DNA of 64,000 nt from Paenibacillus beijingensis (GTDB lineage: Bacteria > Bacillota > Bacilli > Paenibacillales > Paenibacillaceae), in the NCBI RefSeq assembly GCF_000961095.1, contig NZ_CP011058.1:3478492-3542491 (forward strand). Reading direction: 5' to 3'. The notes beneath the pieces are model-generated. The model did not search any database. It was not told where the DNA came from and worked only from the letters and a program-made list of their open reading frames with translations. The translations under genes and the position numbers were made by a program. Below, one piece after another: positions 5,732-35,478 of this stretch (its first letter is position 1; each line of letters opens with the position of its first letter).

Positions 5732-7846
5732 GTGCATGAAGATGATCCGCAGAAGCGGGATGTCGTTAACCGGCGAAATTTCTCGCTGCGGTTGAACGTG
5801 TTTTTTTTCGCCGCGTTTTTTCTATTCAGCGTTCTTATTGTGCGGCTGGCGATTTTGCAGTTTGTAGAGGGACCTTCTCTTTCCAAGGAAGAGAGCAGCA
5901 TGGGAACCCGGAATGTGAAAATTCCGCCCATCCGCGGCGACATTTACGATTCATCGGGCTACCCGATTGCGTATTCGACGTCGACGCAGTCGCTTTATTT
6001 TACGATCCAGACCGGATTCAAGACGGAGGAAGCCAAGTCGCTCGCCAACAAGCTGGAAGCCGCATTTACCAAATACGGCAATCCGGCGAAAGCGATGACG
6101 GTCGACGACATCATCCGGCAGATGGATTTGGGTTTCAAGCAGAACACGGTATCCGTTCCGCGCCGGATTAAGTCGGGCCTCACCAACGAAGAAATCGCCT
6201 ACTTTTCGGAGCACAGGGACGAATTTCCGAGCATCGACATCGTCGAGGAGAGCGTCCGCAATTACGACAAAAGCACGATCGCGGTCCAGCTCGTCGGTTA
6301 TTTGAAGAAGTACAGGGGCGTCAAAGACAGCGTCGACAAGTATAAGGAAATGAAGGCCGAGGAAGACCCCAAGCTTCAATATCTCGATGACGAAGAGGTC
6401 GGCATGGACGGTCTGGAAATGCTGTACCAGGACGTGCTGCGCGGCAAGAACGGGTTGAAATCGTATCCGGTCAACGCTGCCAGCCGCATCATCGGGCCGG
6501 TGCAAATTACGAACCCTGAGCGGGGAGACGATCTGTACCTGACCTTGAACAAAAACGTTCAAATGGCGGCCGAGCAGGCGATCACCGACCAGCTCTACAA
6601 GCTGAAGCATGCGACGAGCGTGCCCCTAAGAGAGGGAAACCAGGCGACGACCGGCTATGCGGTGGCGATGGAAGTAAAGACCGGCAAAGTGATCGCGATG
6701 GCGAGCATGCCGGATTATGATCCGAATGTATGGTCCGGCGGCAAAATCAGTCAGGAGGATCTGAAAAACATCCAGTACTTTCAGTCAAACGGCGCGATCC
6801 GTCAAGTATACCCGCCTTACGACGATGCGAAGCAGCGCAACCGTCATCCGTCTTCGCTGGTGCCGCTCGGATCGACGCAAAAACCGTTGACGGTGCTGAT
6901 CGGATTGAAAGAGGATCTGTATTCGACGGATTTTGTATATCATGATTCCGGCGTGTTCTCGTTCGGTAAAAAAGGGTACCAGGTATCCGTTCGCAACTCT
7001 TCCAATCACGCATACGGTCCCATCGACCCGGCGATGTCAATCGCCCACTCCTCCAACACGTTCATGTCGGAGATGATCGGCAACAAGCTGTACATGAAAT
7101 ACGGCAGAAAAGGCGTCGACATTTGGGACGGCTACGTCAAGCAGTTCGGCCTGGGCGTCTCGACGGAAAGCGGGCTGCCGGGCGAGTCCAAAGGCGTCGT
7201 CGATTATTACCACGAAGCCGACAGCGGCAGCGCGCAATCGGCGCTCATTTATGCCTCGTTCGGCCAGCAGGGCCGTTATACGGCGCTGCAGCTGGCGCAA
7301 TATGCGGCGGCGCTCGGCAGCCGCGGCAAGCGGATGCAGCCGCAGTTCGTGAACGAAATCAAGGATGCGGACGGCAATGTCGTTCAGTCGTTTAAGCCGA
7401 AAGTGCTTAACTCGGTGACGTATCCGGATTCGTACTGGAACGAGATTTTCCGCGGCATGTCGAAAGTTTCGGTGCAGGGCTTTGATGGCGCGAACTACTC
7501 GTTCCTGCGTAAAACCGGTACGTCCGAGCAAGATGTAGGCGACCGCAAAAAGGTCGAAAACGCCGTATTTATCGCACTGGCCCCGGCGGAGAATCCGGTA
7601 ATCGCCGTGTCGGTCGTCATTCCCGACGGCGGCTTCGGCGGATACGGCGCCGCTCCTGTCGCGCGGCAAATTATCGACGCTTACGACGATTACATCGGCC
7701 TGAACGGAACGCCGCGCAAGGCGGCGAACGCGCCCGCCTCGGGCGGGGCAGCGGGCAACGCTTCGGCAGGCACGGCCCCGGCAGGCACGGCGGCAACCGG
7801 TACGGCTAACACTGATACGGCCGCAGCGGCGGGGGCGGCTCGTTAA
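5732..7846 (+). CDS. penicillin-binding protein 2 / peptidoglycan D,D-transpeptidase (FtsI/SpoVD family)
   Basis: GTG start with RBS AAGGAGTGA. N-terminal TM and a dimerisation domain. SXXK appears as GSTQKP, and an SXN motif is present. Ala/Gly/Thr-rich C-terminal tail. Confidence 0.85.
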   Translation: MHEDDPQKRDVVNRRNFSLRLNVFFFAAFFLFSVLIVRLAILQFVEGPSLSKEESSMGTRNVKIPPIRGDIYDSSGYPIAYSTSTQSLYFTIQTGFKTEEAKSLANKLEAAFTKYGNPAKAMTVDDIIRQMDLGFKQNTVSVPRRIKSGLTNEEIAYFSEHRDEFPSIDIVEESVRNYDKSTIAVQLVGYLKKYRGVKDSVDKYKEMKAEEDPKLQYLDDEEVGMDGLEMLYQDVLRGKNGLKSYPVNAASRIIGPVQITNPERGDDLYLTLNKNVQMAAEQAITDQLYKLKHATSVPLREGNQATTGYAVAMEVKTGKVIAMASMPDYDPNVWSGGKISQEDLKNIQYFQSNGAIRQVYPPYDDAKQRNRHPSSLVPLGSTQKPLTVLIGLKEDLYSTDFVYHDSGVFSFGKKGYQVSVRNSSNHAYGPIDPAMSIAHSSNTFMSEMIGNKLYMKYGRKGVDIWDGYVKQFGLGVSTESGLPGESKGVVDYYHEADSGSAQSALIYASFGQQGRYTALQLAQYAAALGSRGKRMQPQFVNEIKDADGNVVQSFKPKVLNSVTYPDSYWNEIFRGMSKVSVQGFDGANYSFLRKTGTSEQDVGDRKKVENAVFIALAPAENPVIAVSVVIPDGGFGGYGAAPVARQIIDAYDDYIGLNGTPRKAANAPASGGAAGNASAGTAPAGTAATGTANTDTAAAAGAAR

Positions 7847-23905: not shown

Positions 23906-24015
23906 CGCAGATTGCGATTGGGAAACGATACTAGAAAAGCAACATTTATTCCAATATATGTTACAGTATTATTGGATACAAACTGATGGCTTTTCAACGT
24001 GATGGAGGGGTAAAT

Positions 24016-24705
24016 ATGTTGCCAAAGAAAAAGATGATTATTATTGGGGCTTCAATTGTTTTTCTACTAGGTAATGCTGTTGGGGCTATGGCATCTTCAA
24101 AATTCAAAGAGATTAAGGCTATTTTAAATCCATCGTTAAATGTTGAATTTAATGGAGAACAGCTTGCACCAATGAAGGCTATTAACTATGAAGGAACAAC
24201 TTATCTGCCAATACGAAATATTTCGGAGATAGCCGCACTGGACAGTAGAATTGAATTCGACAGCAAGAAAAACAAGCTGATCATTGGTGGGCCAATGTAC
24301 CTCAATCTCTATTCCCAAAATAGCGATGGTTTTTATCAGATGATTGTTAACGGTAACTGGCATCCGTCAATAATTACGCCGAACAGAAAAATTTACAGTA
24401 ATTATTATATGGGAGTTGACTTCTTTCTTGAGACCGAAGCAAGCGATAGTTTAGATGAATACTACAAGTCTATAGTAAATGACCAGTCTTCAGGTATAAA
24501 AATTACAAGTGAAACAGATACGGAAATATTCAAGCAACAGGCAAAAGAAGCCACTTTTGAATCATCGGATTCAATTGGAAAGTTGGCAATAATCCAAAAC
24601 GGTAATGATTTTATTATCATTCGCTTTTTTGTAGATAAGACAAGGTTCAAACAATCTGACTTTAAAGAGTACGATAAGATGTTGAAAAGTTTTAATATTC
24701 AATAG
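24016..24705 (+). CDS. secreted protein with a copper-amine-oxidase N-terminal-like domain
   Basis: Signal peptide. GTTYLPIRNISEIAALDSRIEFDSKKNKLII matches the CuAO N-terminal (stalk) domain pattern. RBS GGAGGGG. Confidence 0.5.
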   Translation: MLPKKKMIIIGASIVFLLGNAVGAMASSKFKEIKAILNPSLNVEFNGEQLAPMKAINYEGTTYLPIRNISEIAALDSRIEFDSKKNKLIIGGPMYLNLYSQNSDGFYQMIVNGNWHPSIITPNRKIYSNYYMGVDFFLETEASDSLDEYYKSIVNDQSSGIKITSETDTEIFKQQAKEATFESSDSIGKLAIIQNGNDFIIIRFFVDKTRFKQSDFKEYDKMLKSFNIQ

Positions 24706-24746
24706 CACACTGTTAAAGCAACAGGGACTGATGGAGATGTCTATAA

Positions 24747-25418
24747 ATGAAACGAATTTTATATATCGAAGACGAAGCGGAAATCGGCGAGTGGGTGAAA
24801 TCGGACCTTGAACGACGCGGTTACAGCGTCCGGTGGCTCACTTCCGGCCAAGGGGCGACCGAAGAGGTGAAGCAGGCCGATCTTGTTGTGCTTGATGTGA
24901 TGCTGCCGGGACTGGACGGCTACTCAGTCGGGCAAAGGCTGAAGCGGGAGGCGCCGCAAGTGCCGATTCTGATGCTGTCCGCATTGTCCTCAGTGGAGGA
25001 CAAGCTGCAGGGCCTCAGCTTTGCGGACGACTATATGACGAAGCCGTTCCACCCGGACGAGCTGGCGGCGCGTCTGGAGGTGCTGCAGCGGAGGTTCGGG
25101 CAGTCGATCGGCAGTGAAGTGAGACTCGGTCACATTACCGTCCGGCTTGAACAGCAATCCGTCATGGATAGCCGGACGGGGGACGAAATTCCGCTGACGG
25201 CCAAACAGCTGCAAATTTTGCTTTTTTTCCTGAAGCATTCGAATCAGATCATGACGAAGGAGCAGATCTACGAGTCGATCTGGGGAGAGCCTTACATGGA
25301 AGGCGATAAGACGGTAATGGTCCATATCCGTTACTTGCGCGAAAAAATCGAAATCAATCCGAGCGAACCGGCGATCATCGAGACGATTCGCGGCATCGGT
25401 TACCGGGTGAAATTATGA
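24747..25418 (+). CDS. OmpR-family response regulator
   Basis: Receiver domain with DLVVLD phosphoacceptor region, plus a winged-helix output domain. Confidence 0.85.
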   Translation: MKRILYIEDEAEIGEWVKSDLERRGYSVRWLTSGQGATEEVKQADLVVLDVMLPGLDGYSVGQRLKREAPQVPILMLSALSSVEDKLQGLSFADDYMTKPFHPDELAARLEVLQRRFGQSIGSEVRLGHITVRLEQQSVMDSRTGDEIPLTAKQLQILLFFLKHSNQIMTKEQIYESIWGEPYMEGDKTVMVHIRYLREKIEINPSEPAIIETIRGIGYRVKL

Positions 25419-30794: not shown

Positions 30795-30800
30795 TGCCGC

Positions 30801-31187
30801 TTAATCATCAATGGCGGAAGGTCCCATCGTTGCCTGGCAGGCCAACCGGTAACCAGCCTTAACGTCGTCGGACAATAATTTGCGCTCGCGTTTATTGGCC
30901 TCAGTGAGCAAGCCGGCTCCGCTGATTAAGCGTATTTTGCATACGCCGCAGGAGCCTTTTCGGCATTTGTATTTGAGCGGAATACCGTTGTCCAAGCCTG
31001 ACTCTAATAGATTTTTCCCTGGAATAAAAGATACCTCATAAACATTTCCGTCCTGAATGAGGCGGATGCCCGATATTGCAGTTCTTGATACCGTCTTTGG
31101 AATCCCGGGGGGAGTCGACGTTTTATGTTGTTGATTGACAACAACCGAGCTTGGCACTAAAGAGCCGACCGTCAATTTTCGATTCAT
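30801..31187 (-). CDS. 2Fe-2S ferredoxin-domain protein with an N-terminal encapsulin targeting-peptide-like motif
   Basis: CRKGSCGVC...LACQA plant-type [2Fe-2S] ligand pattern. N-terminus MNRKLTVGSLVPS. RBS GGAGATG. Divergent from the cargo-encapsulin ORF. Confidence 0.7.
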   Translation of the reverse strand: MNRKLTVGSLVPSSVVVNQQHKTSTPPGIPKTVSRTAISGIRLIQDGNVYEVSFIPGKNLLESGLDNGIPLKYKCRKGSCGVCKIRLISGAGLLTEANKRERKLLSDDVKAGYRLACQATMGPSAIDD

Positions 31188-31219
31188 AATCGGCATCTCC
31201 TTTCCAAGTGACAACGAAG

Positions 31220-31228
31220 TGTTATAAA
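31220..31228 (+). promoter_or_regulatory. putative extended -10 promoter (TGtTATAAA) for the cargo-encapsulin ORF
   Basis: TG-n-TATAAA, with a weak TTTCCA -35 sixteen nt upstream. Confidence 0.3.
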
Positions 31229-31280
31229 ATGAATGAAACAAGTAAATACTAGTTCAATAGCGAGAAAGGGGGAGAAACGA

Positions 31281-32720
31281 TTGCAGCGAATCGCACAGTT
31301 AAGAGATATGTTTACCGTCACCAAAGAGAATATCCAATATTTTATGAACTTGATCAGTCCGATTATTGCAAACGCTGTCGATGAGCATCAACGGATGTAC
31401 TTTCATCACATTTTCGAAGAAGAAGAACAGCATTTGGAGCGTCTGGAACTATTTCTCCCTAAGTTGGCCGAGCTGGCTATCGTTTCTCCGAACGAAGCTG
31501 CCGAGCGCAAATTGATAGGTTTGCTGCAGGATATCAACCTGGAAACGTTCGGGCAGCATAATTTTCTGGAGCACCTTGAACTGATGCTATTCCACTTTAC
31601 ATCCGGCGAGACCAACCAGAAGCTGCACGGAATGATTGACCAAACGAAACGTGATTACCTTATTATAAAAGATATTTTGTTTCAATTGAATGAAGAATTT
31701 CTTCCGGAAGCCAATCGTGCCAAAGCATCCGATCATCATGACGTGCACAGCGCGGCTCATCAAAGCCCCGTTTCAGCCGATTTCAATTGGAAGAACGAAG
31801 CGCCGGCAAGAAAAGGATTAACGGTTGGCAGCTTGAAAGGAATGAAAAAAGAGCAATTTTTCCGGAGGGTTACGATGGCAAACAAAGTCGATATTTATCC
31901 CGACTCCCCGCTAAATGCGGCGCAATGGGAGCAAATGAATGAAACCATTATTGAGGCCGCCCGCAAACAATTGATCGGCAGACGGTTTATCGAAATCTAT
32001 GGTCCGATCGGAGAAGGCATCCAGTCGATCAATGTCGACATCTTCGACGAACTTCAGGGCGGGGGAATCGACGTTCACGGCAGTAAACTTGAACTTTCCG
32101 TCCCAAGCCGGAGAAGGAACTTGACCATACCGATGCTGTACAAAGATTTTACGCTGTATCGAAGAGATTTTGAATTGGCGAAAAGTCTTTCCATCCCGCT
32201 TGACTTAAGTCCGGCTGCCAATGCGGCAACGCAGTGCGCAAGACTTGAGGATGAGCTGATCTTCCAAGGCTCGGAAGAATTCGATCTTCCCGGGTTAATG
32301 AATGTTAAAGGCCGTCTGACCCACATTATCGAGAATTGGATGGAATCGGGAAAAGCGTTTGAAGATGTCGTAGAGGCAACCCGTAAATTACAGCAGGTGG
32401 GACAAACCGGGCCGTACGCGCTTGTGTTGTCGCCCGAATTATACGCATCGTTGCATCGTGTCCATCAAGGAACCAATGTTCTGGAGATCGAGCATGTGAA
32501 GGAGCTCGTAACCGACGGCGTATTCCAGTCTCCGTCGCTTAAAGGCCGATCCGGAGTGATGGTCAATACAGGGCGCCACAATTTTGACTTGGTCATCGCC
32601 GAGGATTTCGACAGCGCCTTCCTTGATTCGGAACATTTGAATTTTCTGTTCCGGGTTTATGAGACGATCGTGCTCCGCATCAAGCGGCCAATTGCGATTT
32701 GTACGTTTGAAGAAGCTTAA
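31281..32720 (+). CDS. IMEF/ferritin-like cargo domain fused in frame to a family-1 encapsulin shell protein (full-length product)
   Basis: The reading frame is continuous from ATG 31233 (the likely start is TTG 31281, RBS AAGGGGGAG) to TAA 32720. The N-terminal roughly 200 aa are helical and E/H-rich (EEEEQHLERLE, FLEHLE). They end in the targeting peptide GLTVGSLKG (31815..31841). The C-terminal 281 aa are a linocin-M18/encapsulin fold. Confidence 0.7.
   Translation: MQRIAQLRDMFTVTKENIQYFMNLISPIIANAVDEHQRMYFHHIFEEEEQHLERLELFLPKLAELAIVSPNEAAERKLIGLLQDINLETFGQHNFLEHLELMLFHFTSGETNQKLHGMIDQTKRDYLIIKDILFQLNEEFLPEANRAKASDHHDVHSAAHQSPVSADFNWKNEAPARKGLTVGSLKGMKKEQFFRRVTMANKVDIYPDSPLNAAQWEQMNETIIEAARKQLIGRRFIEIYGPIGEGIQSINVDIFDELQGGGIDVHGSKLELSVPSRRRNLTIPMLYKDFTLYRRDFELAKSLSIPLDLSPAANAATQCARLEDELIFQGSEEFDLPGLMNVKGRLTHIIENWMESGKAFEDVVEATRKLQQVGQTGPYALVLSPELYASLHRVHQGTNVLEIEHVKELVTDGVFQSPSLKGRSGVMVNTGRHNFDLVIAEDFDSAFLDSEHLNFLFRVYETIVLRIKRPIAICTFEEA
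31875..32720 (+). CDS. family-1 encapsulin nanocompartment shell protein (internal initiation product)
   Basis: GGAGGG at 31864..31869 lies 5 nt before ATG 31875. The 281 aa align along their whole length with T. maritima encapsulin (AAQWEQMNE...LIGRRFIEIYGPIG, EDELIFQG, GPYALVLSPELY, and the C-terminal ICTFEEA). Confidence 0.8.
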   Translation: MANKVDIYPDSPLNAAQWEQMNETIIEAARKQLIGRRFIEIYGPIGEGIQSINVDIFDELQGGGIDVHGSKLELSVPSRRRNLTIPMLYKDFTLYRRDFELAKSLSIPLDLSPAANAATQCARLEDELIFQGSEEFDLPGLMNVKGRLTHIIENWMESGKAFEDVVEATRKLQQVGQTGPYALVLSPELYASLHRVHQGTNVLEIEHVKELVTDGVFQSPSLKGRSGVMVNTGRHNFDLVIAEDFDSAFLDSEHLNFLFRVYETIVLRIKRPIAICTFEEA

Positions 32721-32726
32721 GTTTTG

Positions 32727-32765
32727 CATGCTCTCCTTTGTGGAGGGCATGCTTTTTATTTTTCT
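32727..32765 (+). terminator. rho-independent terminator after the encapsulin gene
   Basis: GCATGCTCTCC...GGAGGGCATGC followed by TTTTTATTTTT. Confidence 0.7.
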
Positions 32766-32833
32766 TGAATAATAACAGGAAGAAAATCATAAGTTAAGCA
32801 CTGAGATGAGAATTTTGGGAATGAGAATCATTC

Positions 32834-32863
32834 TTGACAAATGCGACCGCCTTATACTATGAT
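32834..32863 (+). promoter_or_regulatory. sigma-A-type promoter (TTGACA-N18-TATGAT)
   Basis: Consensus -35 and a near-consensus -10 upstream of the 32994 gene. Confidence 0.6.
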
Positions 32864-32871
32864 GGTCTCAA

Positions 32872-32890
32872 GATAATGAGAATCATTATC
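32872..32890 (+). promoter_or_regulatory. Fur box (GATAATGAGAATCATTATC)
   Basis: 18 of 19 positions match the classical Fur box GATAATGATAATCATTATC. It sits at about +1 of the promoter. A second half-site-like palindrome, AATGAGAATCATT at 32820..32832, overlaps the -35. Confidence 0.7.
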
Positions 32891-32993
32891 GCGAAGAAAC
32901 GATCAAACTGCTGCTGTATTTCTGTTGTTCTTGCTCTTCTTTGCTTGTTTCGTACTGGGATATTTGAACTTCAACAGGAATTAACTGCATAAG

Positions 32994-33479
32994 ATGGAGG
33001 CTATTATGATTACGTCAATTAATGGTTTGCAGGATATTCATACCGTGATACGAAATGAGCGAAAAGTCGGGGGAGCAGTAGAGGCAGAGCGAATCCGCTT
33101 ATGTTCTGGCGAAGAATATGCTTATCCTGTCATAACAAGCGTGGATACCGATGGAAAAACAATCTATTCGATCGGTTTTTTTACCAATGACGGAACACGA
33201 ATTATCGCAAATATAAGTGAGGTCGCCCAGATCTCCCAGCCGTCGCATAAATGGCTAAAGGATTTGGTCAATACAAATTATAAGTCGTTCAAGATCGGTC
33301 AGAAAGTAAACTATTTGCTTCGGCTTTGTGAACTGAACGAGGGAAGCGCAACTTCGATTTTTCGAGCGGAAGTGGAAAGAATCGTGGAAGATATCGGTGC
33401 AGATTCGATTGCGCATGTGAAAAATGCGCATCCAATCCTGCAGCATTCCGCCAAAATACTGCCGATGCGCATCGCCTAA
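32994..33479 (+). CDS. hypothetical protein (predicted Fur-regulated)
   Basis: 161 aa with no recognisable domain. Lies downstream of the Fur-box promoter. RBS GATGGAGG. Confidence 0.5.
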   Translation: MEAIMITSINGLQDIHTVIRNERKVGGAVEAERIRLCSGEEYAYPVITSVDTDGKTIYSIGFFTNDGTRIIANISEVAQISQPSHKWLKDLVNTNYKSFKIGQKVNYLLRLCELNEGSATSIFRAEVERIVEDIGADSIAHVKNAHPILQHSAKILPMRIA

Positions 33480-34502: not shown

Positions 34503-35219
34503 ATGTATCGTATCTTGATCGTAGAGGATGATGAGAAGATCGGCGCGCTGCTTCAAAGCTATATTTGCAAATACGGCTTCGAGGCGATCATCGCCAAACG
34601 GCTGAACAAGTTGAACGCGGAGTTTGAAGAAACGGCTCCGCATTTGGTGCTGATGGACATCAACCTGCCTTTTTTCGACGGCTTTTATTGGTGCCGCCAG
34701 TTTCGCGTCCGCTCGAATGCGCCCGTTATCTTTATTTCCGCGCGGGCGGGGGAGATGGATCAGGTGATGGCGATCGAAAACGGAGGCGACGATTATTTGA
34801 CGAAGCCGATTCATCTGGACCTGATGATCGCCAAAATCAAAAGCGCGCTTCGCCGCGCTTACGGCGAATATGCGTCGGCTTCGGCGGCCGGCAAAGCGGC
34901 CGGGCCGTCCTGCGGCGGCCTCCGTCTCGACAACGGGCGCAGCCATCTCGAGTGGTCGGACCGCCTTGTAGAGCTGACCCGCAACGAGCGGCTGCTGGCG
35001 GAATGTCTGCTGGAAGCGGAAGGTCGGATTGTTTCCCGCGAACGGCTGCTGGAAGCGCTCTGGGACGATGTTCAGTTCGTCGACGACAATACGCTGACGG
35101 TGAACGTGACCCGGCTGCGCAAAAAAATGGAGGAGCTCGGGCTTTCGGAAGCGCTCGAAACGGTGCGCGGACAAGGGTACCGGCTGCGGACGGAAACGTT
35201 GGCGGACAGGACGGTATGA
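34503..35219 (+). CDS. OmpR-family response regulator (BceR-like)
   Basis: Receiver domain (LMDINLP) plus a winged helix. Confidence 0.85.
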   Translation: MYRILIVEDDEKIGALLQSYICKYGFEAIIAKRLNKLNAEFEETAPHLVLMDINLPFFDGFYWCRQFRVRSNAPVIFISARAGEMDQVMAIENGGDDYLTKPIHLDLMIAKIKSALRRAYGEYASASAAGKAAGPSCGGLRLDNGRSHLEWSDRLVELTRNERLLAECLLEAEGRIVSRERLLEALWDDVQFVDDNTLTVNVTRLRKKMEELGLSEALETVRGQGYRLRTETLADRTV

Positions 35220-35478
35220 GGAGCGGATGGACGTATGTGCTGGACAGGCTTTTTTACATCGTCTCTTTTCTGGCTGCAATCGGAGTCGGGTGTCTCATCT
35301 GGATATTGGACCGAACCGCTGCGCGGACAAGGGTACCGGCTGCGGACGGAAACGTTGGCGGACAGGACGGTATGAGGAGCGGATGGACGTATGTGCTGGA
35401 CAGGCTTTTTTACATCGTCTCTTTTCTGGCTGCAATCGGAGTCGGGTGTCTCATCTGGATATTGGACCGAACCGCTGC
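35167..35478. repeat. perfect tandem duplication of 2 x 156 bp spanning the RR 3' end and HK 5' end
   Basis: Two identical 156-bp copies. Each contains the RR tail, the RR stop (in copy 1), the HK RBS and the first 36 HK codons. Confidence 0.85.

What the first reader, a model, noticed from the sequence alone, without database searches (positions are those of the whole stretch)
30801..32765. Encapsulin iron-storage nanocompartment locus with a dual-cargo targeting motif
The C-terminal 281 aa of ORF 31233..32720 align end to end with family-1 (linocin-M18/HK97-fold) encapsulin shell proteins. Immediately N-terminal is an E/H-rich helical domain of about 200 aa whose last residues are GLTVGSLKG. 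That matches the (L/I)TVGSL-type cargo-loading peptide used by Firmicute IMEF (ferritin-like) cargo. The divergent neighbour (30801..31187) is a plant-type 2Fe-2S ferredoxin that opens with MNRKLTVGSLV, the same peptide at its N-terminus. This mirrors the Fdx/IMEF/encapsulin architecture described for Bacillaceae large T=4 iron-mineralising compartments. Here it sits in a Paenibacillus-like accessory region beside a Fur-controlled promoter and a GGDEF cyclase. Automated annotation would label all three as hypothetical.
Basis: partly seen in the sequence, partly recalled or inferred. Interest (0 to 1): 0.9.

Follow-up and report, generated by a model that had tools for sequence, protein, structure and literature searches.

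The report
IMEF encapsulin locus, cargo fused to shell
This is a known type of bacterial iron-storage protein cage (an IMEF encapsulin system) in Paenibacillus beijingensis, ordinary except that a lost stop codon has joined the iron-oxidising cargo gene in frame to the shell gene.

Summary
ORF 31233..32720 holds an IMEF ferritin-like cargo (PF24309, TIGR04536; PDB 6N63, 1e-29) and a family-1 encapsulin shell (NF041155; PDB 6NJ8, the T=4 shell, 1e-114). The divergent gene 30801..31187 is a PF00111 2Fe-2S ferredoxin starting MNRKLTVGSL. The IMEF/shell/ferredoxin system and both targeting peptides are already published, so the system is not new. The source is Paenibacillus beijingensis, and NCBI already names the shell correctly.

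In 81 of 83 related loci they are separate genes. The closest relative (82% nucleotide identity) ends IMEF at ...LRGMKK-TAG. The window has GAG there and a spacer one base shorter. This gives a 479-codon in-frame IMEF-linker-TP-shell fusion that keeps the shell's own Shine-Dalgarno sequence and ATG. Two other independent fusions exist. The fusion is therefore lineage-specific. It is probably expressed, but I could not show that it functions.

The Fur-box promoter drives the next gene, not the encapsulin. That gene, orfX, encodes a 157-aa protein with no known family. It accompanies 71 of 85 IMEF loci, nearly always behind a Fur box. The papers I read do not describe this link.

The parts
30801..31187 (-). 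fdx: 128-aa plant-type 2Fe-2S ferredoxin, the secondary cargo or electron donor. Start ATG 31187, with AAGGAG 9 nt upstream.
   Evidence: PF00111 at 4e-13. Cys pattern CX4CX2CX33C, read from the translation. RefSeq WP_052702992.1 is 128 aa, '2Fe-2S iron-sulfur cluster-binding protein'. dN/dS against L085 is 0.21.
31158..31175 (-). N-terminal targeting peptide LTVGSL of the ferredoxin (residues 5-10).
   Evidence: Read directly from the sequence. Most ferredoxins in related IMEF loci carry the same (L/F)T(V/I)GSL motif at residues 4-15. It is described in PMC8346489.
31188..31280 (.). Divergent fdx/IMEF control region with weak sigma-70-like hexamers. A block at about 31215-31262 is nearly identical in the closest relative. 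No Fur or PerR box is present.
   Evidence: Promoter scan, alignment with L085, and no Fur or PerR match at up to 4 mismatches.
31281..32720 (+). Fused ORF of 479 codons: IMEF domain, disordered linker, targeting peptide, 11-residue former spacer, then shell.
   Evidence: No stop codon lies between cargo and shell. The TTG 31281 start follows SD GGGGGAG (31268-31274) and matches the ATG start of L085 and position 1 of TIGR04536.
31281..31841 (+). IMEF ferritin-like ferroxidase cargo. It has a four-helix bundle, a linker of about 45 residues and the targeting peptide.
   Evidence: TIGR04536 2.5e-55, PF24309 2.6e-43, PDB 6N63 1.2e-29. 39 of the 42 positions conserved in at least 90% of 83 IMEF sequences carry the consensus residue, including D50, H52, H58, H59, E62-64, E104, H109, E113 and H114. 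AF2 gives four helices at residues 2-152 with block-mean pLDDT mostly about 80-97, and a linker with pLDDT about 30. dN/dS is 0.115.
31818..31835 (+). Cargo targeting peptide LTVGSL. It is internal here rather than C-terminal.
   Evidence: The family consensus is LTVGSLK followed by 0-7 residues and a stop.
31851..31853 (+). GAG codon at the position of the ancestral IMEF stop codon (TAG in the closest relative).
   Evidence: Pairwise DNA alignment with L085.
31842..31874 (+). Codons MKKEQFFRRVT between the targeting peptide and the shell. MKK is still cargo. EQFFRRVT is the former intergenic spacer, which is one T shorter than in L085 (TT at 31870-31871) and so puts the shell in frame.
   Evidence: The RNA here has no significant structure (z = +1.2).
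31864..31869 (+). Internal Shine-Dalgarno sequence GGAGGG, 5 nt before the shell ATG 31875.
   Evidence: Read directly from the sequence. It is conserved in L085.
31875..32720 (+). Family-1 encapsulin shell protein, 281 aa, of the T=4 IMEF type.
   Evidence: NF041155 8e-86, PF04454 3e-70, PDB 6NJ8 1e-114. It is 100% identical to the NCBI protein AJY77782.1/WP_045673370.1 of Paenibacillus beijingensis. dN/dS is 0.042.
32726..32762 (+). Intrinsic terminator after the shell gene.
   Evidence: 11-bp stem with 7 GC pairs, followed by a T-run. L085 has a hairpin at the same place with a different stem sequence.
32817..32890 (+). orfX promoter: TTGACA 32834-32839, 18-nt spacer, TATGAT 32858-32863. 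Two Fur-box-like elements flank it: a weak one at 32817-32835 and GATAATGAGAATCATTATC at 32872-32890.
   Evidence: The promoter matches 11 of 12 consensus positions. Fur-box search. Both boxes and both hexamers are 100% conserved with L085, while the intergenic region overall is 77% identical.
33006..33479 (+). orfX: a 157-aa protein of unknown family that accompanies IMEF loci. SD GGAGG lies 5 nt upstream of ATG 33006.
   Evidence: No Pfam, NCBIfam or PDB match. Homologues occur in 71 of 85 IMEF loci. dN/dS is 0.077. NCBI lists it as 'hypothetical protein VN24_15915'.

Best explanation
The locus is a four-gene, low-GC cassette (30801-33479) in Paenibacillus beijingensis that encodes an IMEF-type family-1 encapsulin iron-storage compartment.

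**General mechanism (from the published Quasibacillus thermotolerans system, inferred here by homology).** The 281-aa HK97-fold shell protein self-assembles into a large T=4-type cage. The IMEF four-helix-bundle ferroxidase sits inside and oxidises Fe2+ to a mineral core. The 2Fe-2S ferredoxin carries the same LTVGSL peptide at its N-terminus. It docks to the shell and probably supplies electrons for reductive iron release.

**Specific to this genome (shown by sequence comparison).** The IMEF stop codon has changed from TAG to GAG, and the 22-nt spacer has lost one T. Cargo, its flexible linker, its targeting peptide, an 11-residue stretch MKKEQFFRRVT (the last three cargo residues plus the eight translated spacer codons) and the shell are now one 479-codon reading frame starting at TTG 31281.

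**Inferred consequences.** Ribosomes that start at the cargo TTG make a roughly 55-kDa cargo-shell fusion. Its cargo end points into the lumen, as in archaeal Flp-fusion encapsulins. Ribosomes that start at the retained internal GGAGGG/ATG 31875 make free 32-kDa shell protein. Cages would then be mixed, with cargo covalently tethered. No free IMEF would be made. The cargo:shell ratio would be set by the two initiation rates.

**Neighbouring gene.** orfX, transcribed from its own Fur-box promoter, is a conserved companion of IMEF loci. It would be switched on when iron is scarce. I infer a role in using or releasing the stored iron.
For: **Identity of the parts.** Searches give HMM and PDB matches far above the curated cutoffs.

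**Organism and names.**

**The published system.** It includes the N-terminal TVGSL ferredoxin that co-purifies with the shell, and 42 cargo dimers per 240-subunit shell (PMC6668986, PMC8346489, PMC11202242).

**The fusion.**
- There is no stop codon between 31281 and 32718.
- 81 of 83 relatives have a stop and a spacer, or a short overlap, of -4 to 309 nt.
- L085 has the same gene order and is 82% identical over 30800-33478, with unrelated flanks. It reads LRGMKK-TAG-22 nt-ATG out of frame. The window differs by T->G in the stop and one T fewer in the spacer.
- The stop is lost by a substitution, not a homopolymer-length change. All four genes align with L085 without frameshifts.
- The internal SD and ATG are kept and the surrounding RNA is unstructured.

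**Cargo integrity.** 39 of the 42 positions conserved in at least 90% of 83 IMEF sequences carry the consensus residue, including all the conserved His/Glu/Asp positions. The other three are L->M, R->H and L->Q. dN/dS is 0.115. AF2 predicts a confident four-helix bundle plus a disordered linker.

**Fusions are tolerated elsewhere.** L083 (Brevibacillus sp. SYP-B805) keeps the targeting peptide and an internal SD+ATG. L001/P0063 has the linker and peptide deleted.

**orfX.**
Against: - There is no protein-level or read-level evidence. The fusion rests on one assembly of one strain.
- The closest relative is unfused, and the three fusions are phylogenetically scattered. Nothing shows selection for the fusion.
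- dN/dS averages over the whole divergence (dS about 0.7), so it cannot show constraint since the fusion arose.
- A retained, now redundant targeting peptide suggests a recent event.
- AF2 did not dock the peptide onto the shell in cis (pLDDT about 30).
- Whether a T=4 shell tolerates N-terminal extensions of about 22 kDa on a fraction of its subunits is untested.
- A role for orfX in iron release is pure inference. Its model is poor (pLDDT 51) and it has no detectable homology to anything characterised.
Confidence: 0.6

Rival explanations
1. The fusion is a recent neutral or mildly harmful stop-loss mutation. The fusion protein is made but assembles poorly or loads badly. The system in this strain is degraded, or survives only through internally initiated, cargo-less shells.
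For: The closest relative L085 is unfused. Fusions are rare and scattered: 3 of 84 loci including the window. The spacer evolves fast, with about 5 changes in 22 nt. Since one spacer in three is in frame, stop loss would often give a fusion by chance. The targeting peptide is still intact, which suggests a young event.
Against: Cargo, shell, ferredoxin and orfX show no other lesion. The IMEF positions that differ from the family consensus (3 of 42) are conservative or at variable positions. The N-terminus of family-1 shells faces the lumen, and N-terminal ferritin-like fusions work in archaea (PMC8346489, PMC11202242). Two other lineages carry comparable fusions with intact domains.
Confidence: 0.25
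2. The single ORF is a sequencing or assembly artefact. The real genome has separate cargo and shell genes, like its relatives.
For: Only one assembly of this species is in the databases (P0001 is on a single contig). The frame match depends on the length of a short T-run (TT against TTT), a type of site where indel errors occur. No metagenome contig carries this junction, so there is no independent confirmation.
Against: The stop is removed by a T->G substitution, not an indel. Even with TTT restored, IMEF would still read through, for about 31 more codons by my own reading of the sequence. The 2.7-kb cassette aligns with L085 without any frameshift in four genes.
Confidence: 0.1
3. The fusion is an adaptive, fixed architecture: a bacterial IMEF-fusion encapsulin class, equivalent to the archaeal Flp-fusion encapsulins, selected to fix cargo loading.
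For: There are three independent occurrences. One of them (L001/P0063) has lost the linker and targeting peptide, as expected of a matured fusion. All three keep an internal SD and start codon for free shell. The window's cargo start is the weaker TTG, where L085 has ATG.
Against: No clade of fused relatives was found. Among 83 relatives only 2 are fused. The best 150 of 1.84 billion cluster representatives each matched over a single stretch, in either the shell part or the IMEF part of the query, never both. The 62 IMEF hits from 5.8 billion proteins are all 175-264 aa.
Confidence: 0.05

Closest known systems
Quasibacillus thermotolerans IMEF encapsulin system (shell PDB 6NJ8, cargo PDB 6N63; Giessen et al. 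2019, PMC6668986)
   Same: The shell family is the same (1e-114, aligned end to end). The IMEF cargo family is the same, with all the conserved His/Glu positions kept. The cargo has the same LTVGSL-type targeting peptide after a disordered linker. The 2Fe-2S ferredoxin has the same N-terminal TVGSL peptide. An orfX homologue is also nearby (L074).
   Different: In Q. thermotolerans the order is IMEF, stop, 45-nt spacer, shell, then fdx on the same strand, with orfX convergent. In the window IMEF and shell are one ORF. The ferredoxin gene is upstream and divergent, and orfX is co-directional downstream. The host is a Paenibacillus; no other Paenibacillus appeared among the 80 best genome hits.
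Archaeal Flp-fusion encapsulins (Pyrococcus furiosus, PDB 2E0Z/5N5E)
   Same: A ferritin-like ferroxidase domain is fused to the N-terminus of a family-1 shell protein in one ORF, so assembly itself puts the cargo inside.
   Different: The cargo class differs: a two-helix EncFtn that forms decamers, against the four-helix IMEF dimer. The archaeal fusions have no targeting peptide, are conserved across archaeal lineages and form T=3 shells. The window's fusion keeps its peptide, is not conserved in the nearest relative and keeps an internal start for free shell. PMC8346489 states that all Flp-fusion systems are archaeal.
Bacterioferritin with its ferredoxin Bfd (iron mobilisation under low iron)
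   Same: An iron-storage cage is paired with a small 2Fe-2S ferredoxin thought to deliver electrons for iron release. A neighbouring gene is Fur-controlled.
   Different: The ferredoxin here is the PF00111 plant type, not the BFD-like fold. In the window the Fur box sits in front of orfX, not fdx.
Other IMEF-shell fusions found here: L083 (Brevibacillus sp. SYP-B805) and L001/P0063 (Logan metagenome contig)
   Same: The IMEF and shell are in frame with no stop, and an internal SD plus start codon sits at the shell's normal start.
   Different: The junctions are independent. L083 has the linker SSRLEWRYH after GLAVGSLR. L001 joins the end of helix 4 directly to the shell and lacks both linker and targeting peptide.

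Membership tests
Family 1 encapsulin shell (NF041155 / PF04454) | Sequence match above the curated cutoff over the full length. | tested here: met
   NF041155 scores 287.6 bits against a cutoff of 100, covering profile positions 5-261 of 261. PF04454 scores 236.7 bits against a cutoff of 24.3.
Family 1 encapsulin shell (NF041155 / PF04454) | HK97 fold and assembly into an icosahedral cage (T=4 for the IMEF type). | not testable with these tools
   The fold is inferred from 1e-114 end-to-end homology to the solved T=4 shell 6NJ8. The AF2 monomer model of the shell part is only partly confident. Assembly needs electron microscopy.
IMEF cargo (TIGR04536 / PF24309) | Sequence match above the cutoff, with conserved ferroxidase His/Glu residues on helices 2 and 3. 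| tested here: met
   TIGR04536 scores 187 bits against a cutoff of 100. PF24309 scores 148 bits against a cutoff of 27. H58, H59, E62-64, E104, H109, E113 and H114 are all retained. AF2 predicts a four-helix bundle.
IMEF cargo (TIGR04536 / PF24309) | A separate protein whose targeting peptide is at its C-terminus, encoded just upstream of the shell gene. | tested here: not met
   The peptide LTVGSLKG is present and the position upstream of the shell is right. However, no stop codon follows, so the peptide is internal to a 479-aa ORF. 81 of 83 relatives meet this feature.
IMEF-system ferredoxin (secondary cargo) | A 2Fe-2S ferredoxin with four Cys ligands and an N-terminal TVGSL-type peptide. 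| tested here: met
   PF00111 at 4e-13. The Cys pattern is CX4CX2CX33C and the protein starts MNRKLTVGSL. Relatives carry the same motif. The feature is described in the literature.
IMEF-system ferredoxin (secondary cargo) | Binding to or co-purification with the shell. | not testable with these tools
   Published only for the heterologously expressed Q. thermotolerans-type system.
Fusion encapsulin (cargo domain N-terminally fused to shell) | One ORF encodes the cargo domain followed by the shell. | tested here: met
   The reading frame is open from 31281 to 32720.
Fusion encapsulin (cargo domain N-terminally fused to shell) | The fusion is conserved in related lineages, showing a stable architecture. 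| tested here: not met
   The closest relative L085 and 80 others are unfused. Only L083 and L001 are fused, and each arose independently.
Fur regulon member | A Fur box overlapping the promoter. | tested here: met
   This holds for orfX only. The box at 32872-32890 matches 18 of 19 bases, sits just after the -10 hexamer, and is 100% conserved in L085. No box was found upstream of IMEF or fdx in the window at up to 4 mismatches.

The most novel reading that the evidence does not exclude
P. beijingensis may really build its iron-storage cages from a mixture of two products of one ORF. One is a covalent IMEF-shell fusion. The other is free shell made by internal initiation. That would make this a bacterial counterpart of the archaeal fusion encapsulins, caught at an early stage: stop codon lost, targeting peptide not yet decayed. 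L001/P0063 would represent the later stage, with the peptide deleted. This would show directly how fusion encapsulins arise from two-gene cargo/shell operons. Separately, the Fur-controlled orfX family could be an undescribed component of IMEF systems that acts when iron is scarce.
Probability: 0.4. Interest if true: 0.55.

Novelty: new variant of a known kind. Interest (0 to 1): 0.4.

Why it matters
The system itself (IMEF cargo, T=4-type shell, ferredoxin with an N-terminal targeting peptide) is textbook for the encapsulin field. Finding another copy adds little.

Two things could be useful:

1. **A natural in-frame cargo-shell fusion with a retained internal start.** It is a ready-made test of whether T=4 encapsulins tolerate covalently tethered cargo, and of how cargo:shell stoichiometry can be set by translation. 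That matters for engineering cages. It may also be a snapshot of how fusion encapsulins evolve. Annotation pipelines lose the cargo in such cases: this genome has no IMEF protein record.

2. **orfX.** How iron leaves encapsulins is an open question (PMC11202242). A small protein of unknown family sits next to most IMEF loci behind a Fur box. It is a concrete candidate to test.

Tried and rejected
- **Exact-protein look-ups.** The 495-aa ORF and the 281-aa shell returned no contigs. The source genome seems not to be in that index, and it did not appear in the genome-contig scan either.
- **Junction in metagenomes.** An exact-pattern search for the junction found nothing, so there is no independent confirmation.
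- **Representative-library search with the fusion.** Among the best 150 of 1.84 billion representatives, every hit matched over a single stretch, in either the shell or the IMEF part of the query.
- **Sequencing-error explanations.** I considered a homopolymer error at GGAATGA or in the A6 run as the cause of the fusion. I rejected it after L085 showed that the stop was lost by a T->G substitution.
- **Programmed frameshifting or slippage.** I considered slippage on the run ATG AAA AAA G. I rejected it because the alternative frames do not give a family-like C-terminus. This rests on my own reading of the sequence.
- **RNA structure at the junction.** None was significant.
- **Fur or PerR box between fdx and IMEF.** None was found at up to 4 mismatches.
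- **AF2 of the fusion.** The mixed alignment A7 misplaced the IMEF linkers, so I rebuilt it as A8. The peptide did not dock in cis.
- **orfX.** Pfam, NCBIfam and PDB sequence and profile searches gave nothing. The only matches were summed weak hits of one 30-residue stretch to designed TPR proteins, and no single stretch was significant. The AF2 model was too poor for a fold search (pLDDT 51), so I ran none.
Full report
**What is there**

The window comes from Paenibacillus beijingensis. The 281-aa C-terminal part of the ORF is 100% identical to that species' NCBI protein 'family 1 encapsulin nanocompartment shell protein' on a 5.75-Mb contig.

ORF 31233..32720 (+, 495 aa) contains two well-defined modules.
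- Residues 18-202 match the NCBIfam equivalog TIGR04536 'IMEF encapsulin system ferritin-like cargo protein' over profile positions 1-193 of 194 (2.5e-55). They also match Pfam PF24309 IMEF_Flp (2.6e-43) and the solved IMEF cargo 6N63 (1.2e-29).
- Residues 215-495 match NF041155 (8e-86), PF04454 (3e-70) and the T=4 shell of Quasibacillus thermotolerans, 6NJ8, end to end (1e-114).

The divergent gene 30801..31187 (-) is a PF00111 2Fe-2S ferredoxin (4e-13). Its Cys pattern is CX4CX2CX33C and it starts MNRKLTVGSLV. GLTVGSLKG is at residues 195-203 of the ORF.

**It is a published system**

Giessen et al. 2019 (PMC6668986) described IMEF operons in 71 Firmicute genomes, 70% of them with a 2Fe-2S ferredoxin. 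They reported the T=4, 42-nm shell holding 42 cargo dimers and a C-terminal targeting peptide built as TVGSLIQ. [quoted passage not shown] The 'dual-cargo targeting motif' is thus known.

The claim that annotation would call all three genes hypothetical is wrong for the shell and for the RefSeq ferredoxin, which is '2Fe-2S iron-sulfur cluster-binding protein', 128 aa. The original GenBank call was a 91-aa 'hypothetical protein' that cut off the targeting peptide. The IMEF part has no protein record anywhere. A search of 5.8 billion proteins gave a best hit of 87% identity from another organism.

**The unusual point: one ORF**

I collected 80 genome loci, four short metagenome contigs and one 29-kb contig. 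For each I located IMEF, shell and ferredoxin by tblastn and followed the IMEF frame to its stop.
- In 81 of 83 relatives IMEF ends ...LTVGSLK followed by 0-7 residues and a stop. The distance from the stop to the shell start ranges from -4 to 309 nt, that is, from a short overlap to a long spacer.
- The window, L083 (Brevibacillus sp. SYP-B805) and L001/P0063 (a Logan metagenome contig) are open through the junction.

The decisive comparison is with L085. It shares the same four-gene order and 82% nucleotide identity over window 30800-33478, while its flanks are unrelated.
- At the junction L085 reads TTG AGA GGA ATG AAA AAA TAG, then CGATTGATCCGGAGGGTTTACG, then ATG.
- The window reads TTG AAA GGA ATG AAA AAA GAG CAA TTT TTC CGG AGG GTT ACG ATG.

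So the stop was lost by a T->G substitution (31851-31853), and the spacer is one T shorter (31870-31871), which puts the shell in frame. The shell's Shine-Dalgarno sequence GGAGGG (31864-31869) and ATG 31875 are intact. The local RNA is unstructured (z = +1.2).

The cargo start is TTG 31281, preceded by GGGGGAG. It corresponds to the ATG of L085 and to position 1 of TIGR04536. The upstream ATG 31233 has no SD, and its frame is closed in L085. The predicted product is therefore a 479-aa fusion: IMEF, linker, targeting peptide, MKKEQFFRRVT, shell.

**Is it real and functional?**

A pure sequencing artefact is unlikely. The stop is removed by a substitution. Even if the T-run were really TTT, IMEF would still read on, for about 31 more codons by my reading. 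All four cassette genes align with L085 without frameshifts.

The cargo domain is intact. 39 of the 42 positions conserved in at least 90% of 83 IMEF sequences carry the consensus residue. These include the His/Glu/Asp positions on helices 2 and 3 that form the inter-subunit di-iron site. The remaining three are L->M, R->H and L->Q (site description in PMC11202242).

dN/dS against L085:

| Gene | dN/dS |
|---|---|
| IMEF | 0.115 |
| shell | 0.042 |
| fdx | 0.21 |
| orfX | 0.077 |

dS is 0.7-1.0. AF2 on the fusion gives a confident four-helix bundle at residues 2-152, with block-mean pLDDT mostly about 80-97. The linker and peptide (152-198) are disordered, with pLDDT about 30 and no predicted docking in cis. 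The shell part is only partly confident.

The N-terminus of family-1 shells lines the lumen, and N-terminal ferritin-like fusions work in archaea. The topology is therefore compatible. However, the nearest relative is unfused and the three fusions are independent:
- The L083 linker is SSRLEWRYH, with the peptide kept and SD GGAGG plus ATG retained.
- L001 joins helix 4 directly to the shell, with linker and peptide deleted, and has GGAGG plus TTG at the shell start.

In a search of 1.84 billion cluster representatives, the best 150 hits each matched over a single stretch, in either the shell or the IMEF part of the query. The 62 IMEF hits from the 5.8-billion set are all 175-264 aa. I conclude the fusion is a young, lineage-specific stop loss. 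It is probably translated into a fusion plus internally initiated free shell. It is not shown to be adaptive, or even to work.

**Layout and context**

- The cassette (fdx, IMEF-shell, orfX; 30801-33479) has 41-50% GC, against 53-61% in the flanks.
- No other Paenibacillus appeared among the best 80 genome hits. The nearest named genera are Aneurinibacillus and Ammoniphilus, at 69-73% shell identity. Both points are consistent with horizontal acquisition.
- In the 37 relatives from the first locus set that have a ferredoxin within 5 kb, it is always downstream of the shell: 29 on the same strand and 8 on the opposite strand. Only the window and L085 have it upstream and divergent.
- The GGDEF gene (PF00990) ends 6 nt from the fdx stop and lies outside the conserved cassette.

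**The Fur promoter and orfX**

The shell gene is followed by a terminator (32726-32762). Next comes a near-consensus promoter, TTGACA-18-TATGAT at 32834-32863, matching 11 of 12 positions. A weak Fur-like element at 32817-32835 overlaps its -35 hexamer. An 18-of-19 Fur box, GATAATGAGAATCATTATC at 32872-32890, lies just after its -10 hexamer. Both boxes and both hexamers are 100% conserved in L085, inside an intergenic region that is otherwise only 77% identical.

They precede orfX (33006-33479, 157 aa; 'hypothetical protein VN24_15915'). orfX has no Pfam, NCBIfam or PDB match.

Evidence linking orfX to IMEF loci:
- tblastn finds orfX homologues (36-87% identity) in 71 of the 85 related loci. 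Usually they lie just after the shell gene on the opposite strand, and often divergent from fdx.
- A TGATAATNATTATCA match with at most 2 mismatches lies within 220 nt upstream of orfX in 60 of 72 loci, and with at most 3 mismatches in 71 of 72. The background is 55 and 129 of 3778 tiles of the same loci.
- Starting from orfX, a metagenome scan gave 27 loci. Nineteen have a shell gene in the flank held, and all 27 have a Fur-like box with at most 3 mismatches upstream.

In the window no Fur or PerR box precedes IMEF or fdx. In relatives 26 of 82 IMEF upstream regions have one at up to 2 mismatches. The papers I read list ferredoxin and ferrochelatase-like genes as IMEF companions but not this family. 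The family has no Pfam model.

I infer that orfX is induced at low iron and acts in using the stored iron. That is inference only, and its AF2 model was poor (pLDDT 51).

**Verdict**

The locus is a correct identification of a known system in a new host genus. Its genuine but modest twist is a stop-loss fusion of cargo to shell with a retained internal start. A side finding, the Fur-controlled orfX family linked to IMEF loci, may be of more practical interest than the original claim. I rate it a new variant of a known kind, with interest 0.4.

Noticed in passing
window 32817-33479; homologues in L002-L085 and L086-L112: orfX is a protein of about 155 aa with no Pfam, NCBIfam or PDB match. It sits next to 71 of 85 IMEF encapsulin loci. 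A Fur-like box with at most 3 mismatches lies within 220 nt upstream in 71 of 72 cases, against 3.4% of background tiles. The IMEF papers I read do not mention it.
   Followed up: yes
L083:4395-5831 (Brevibacillus sp. SYP-B805) and L001:1127-2428 (Logan SRR28285722 contig; P0063): These are two further, independent in-frame IMEF-shell fusions. L083 keeps the targeting peptide. L001 has lost both linker and peptide. Both keep an SD and a start codon at the normal shell start.
   Followed up: partly
window 35156-35467: A 156-nt tandem duplication (100% and 99% identity to the reference copy) spans the end of the OmpR-type response-regulator gene (34503..35219) and the start of the adjacent histidine-kinase reading frame. 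It could be a real duplication or an assembly artefact.
   Followed up: no
window 31215-31262 and L085 about 6370-6415: A block in the fdx/IMEF intergenic region (...TTATAAAATGAATGAAACAAGTAAATACTAGTTCAATAGC...) is almost identical between the window and L085, although the loci are only 82% identical overall. It contains no recognisable Fur or PerR box. It may be the operator of an unknown regulator.
   Followed up: partly
upstream of IMEF in L005-L084: About a third of related IMEF operons (26 of 82) have a Fur box with at most 2 mismatches within 220 nt upstream of the cargo gene. The window and L085-type cassette has none there. Regulation of the storage genes themselves therefore differs between lineages.
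   Followed up: partly
window 30801-31187 (-): The original GenBank annotation (AJY77781.1, VN24_15905) called this ferredoxin a 91-aa hypothetical protein, which cut off the N-terminal targeting peptide. RefSeq later extended it to 128 aa.
   Followed up: yes
window 24000-25000: GC content drops to 36-43% here, against about 55% in the neighbouring sequence. This is another possible island boundary or AT-rich intergenic region.
   Followed up: no
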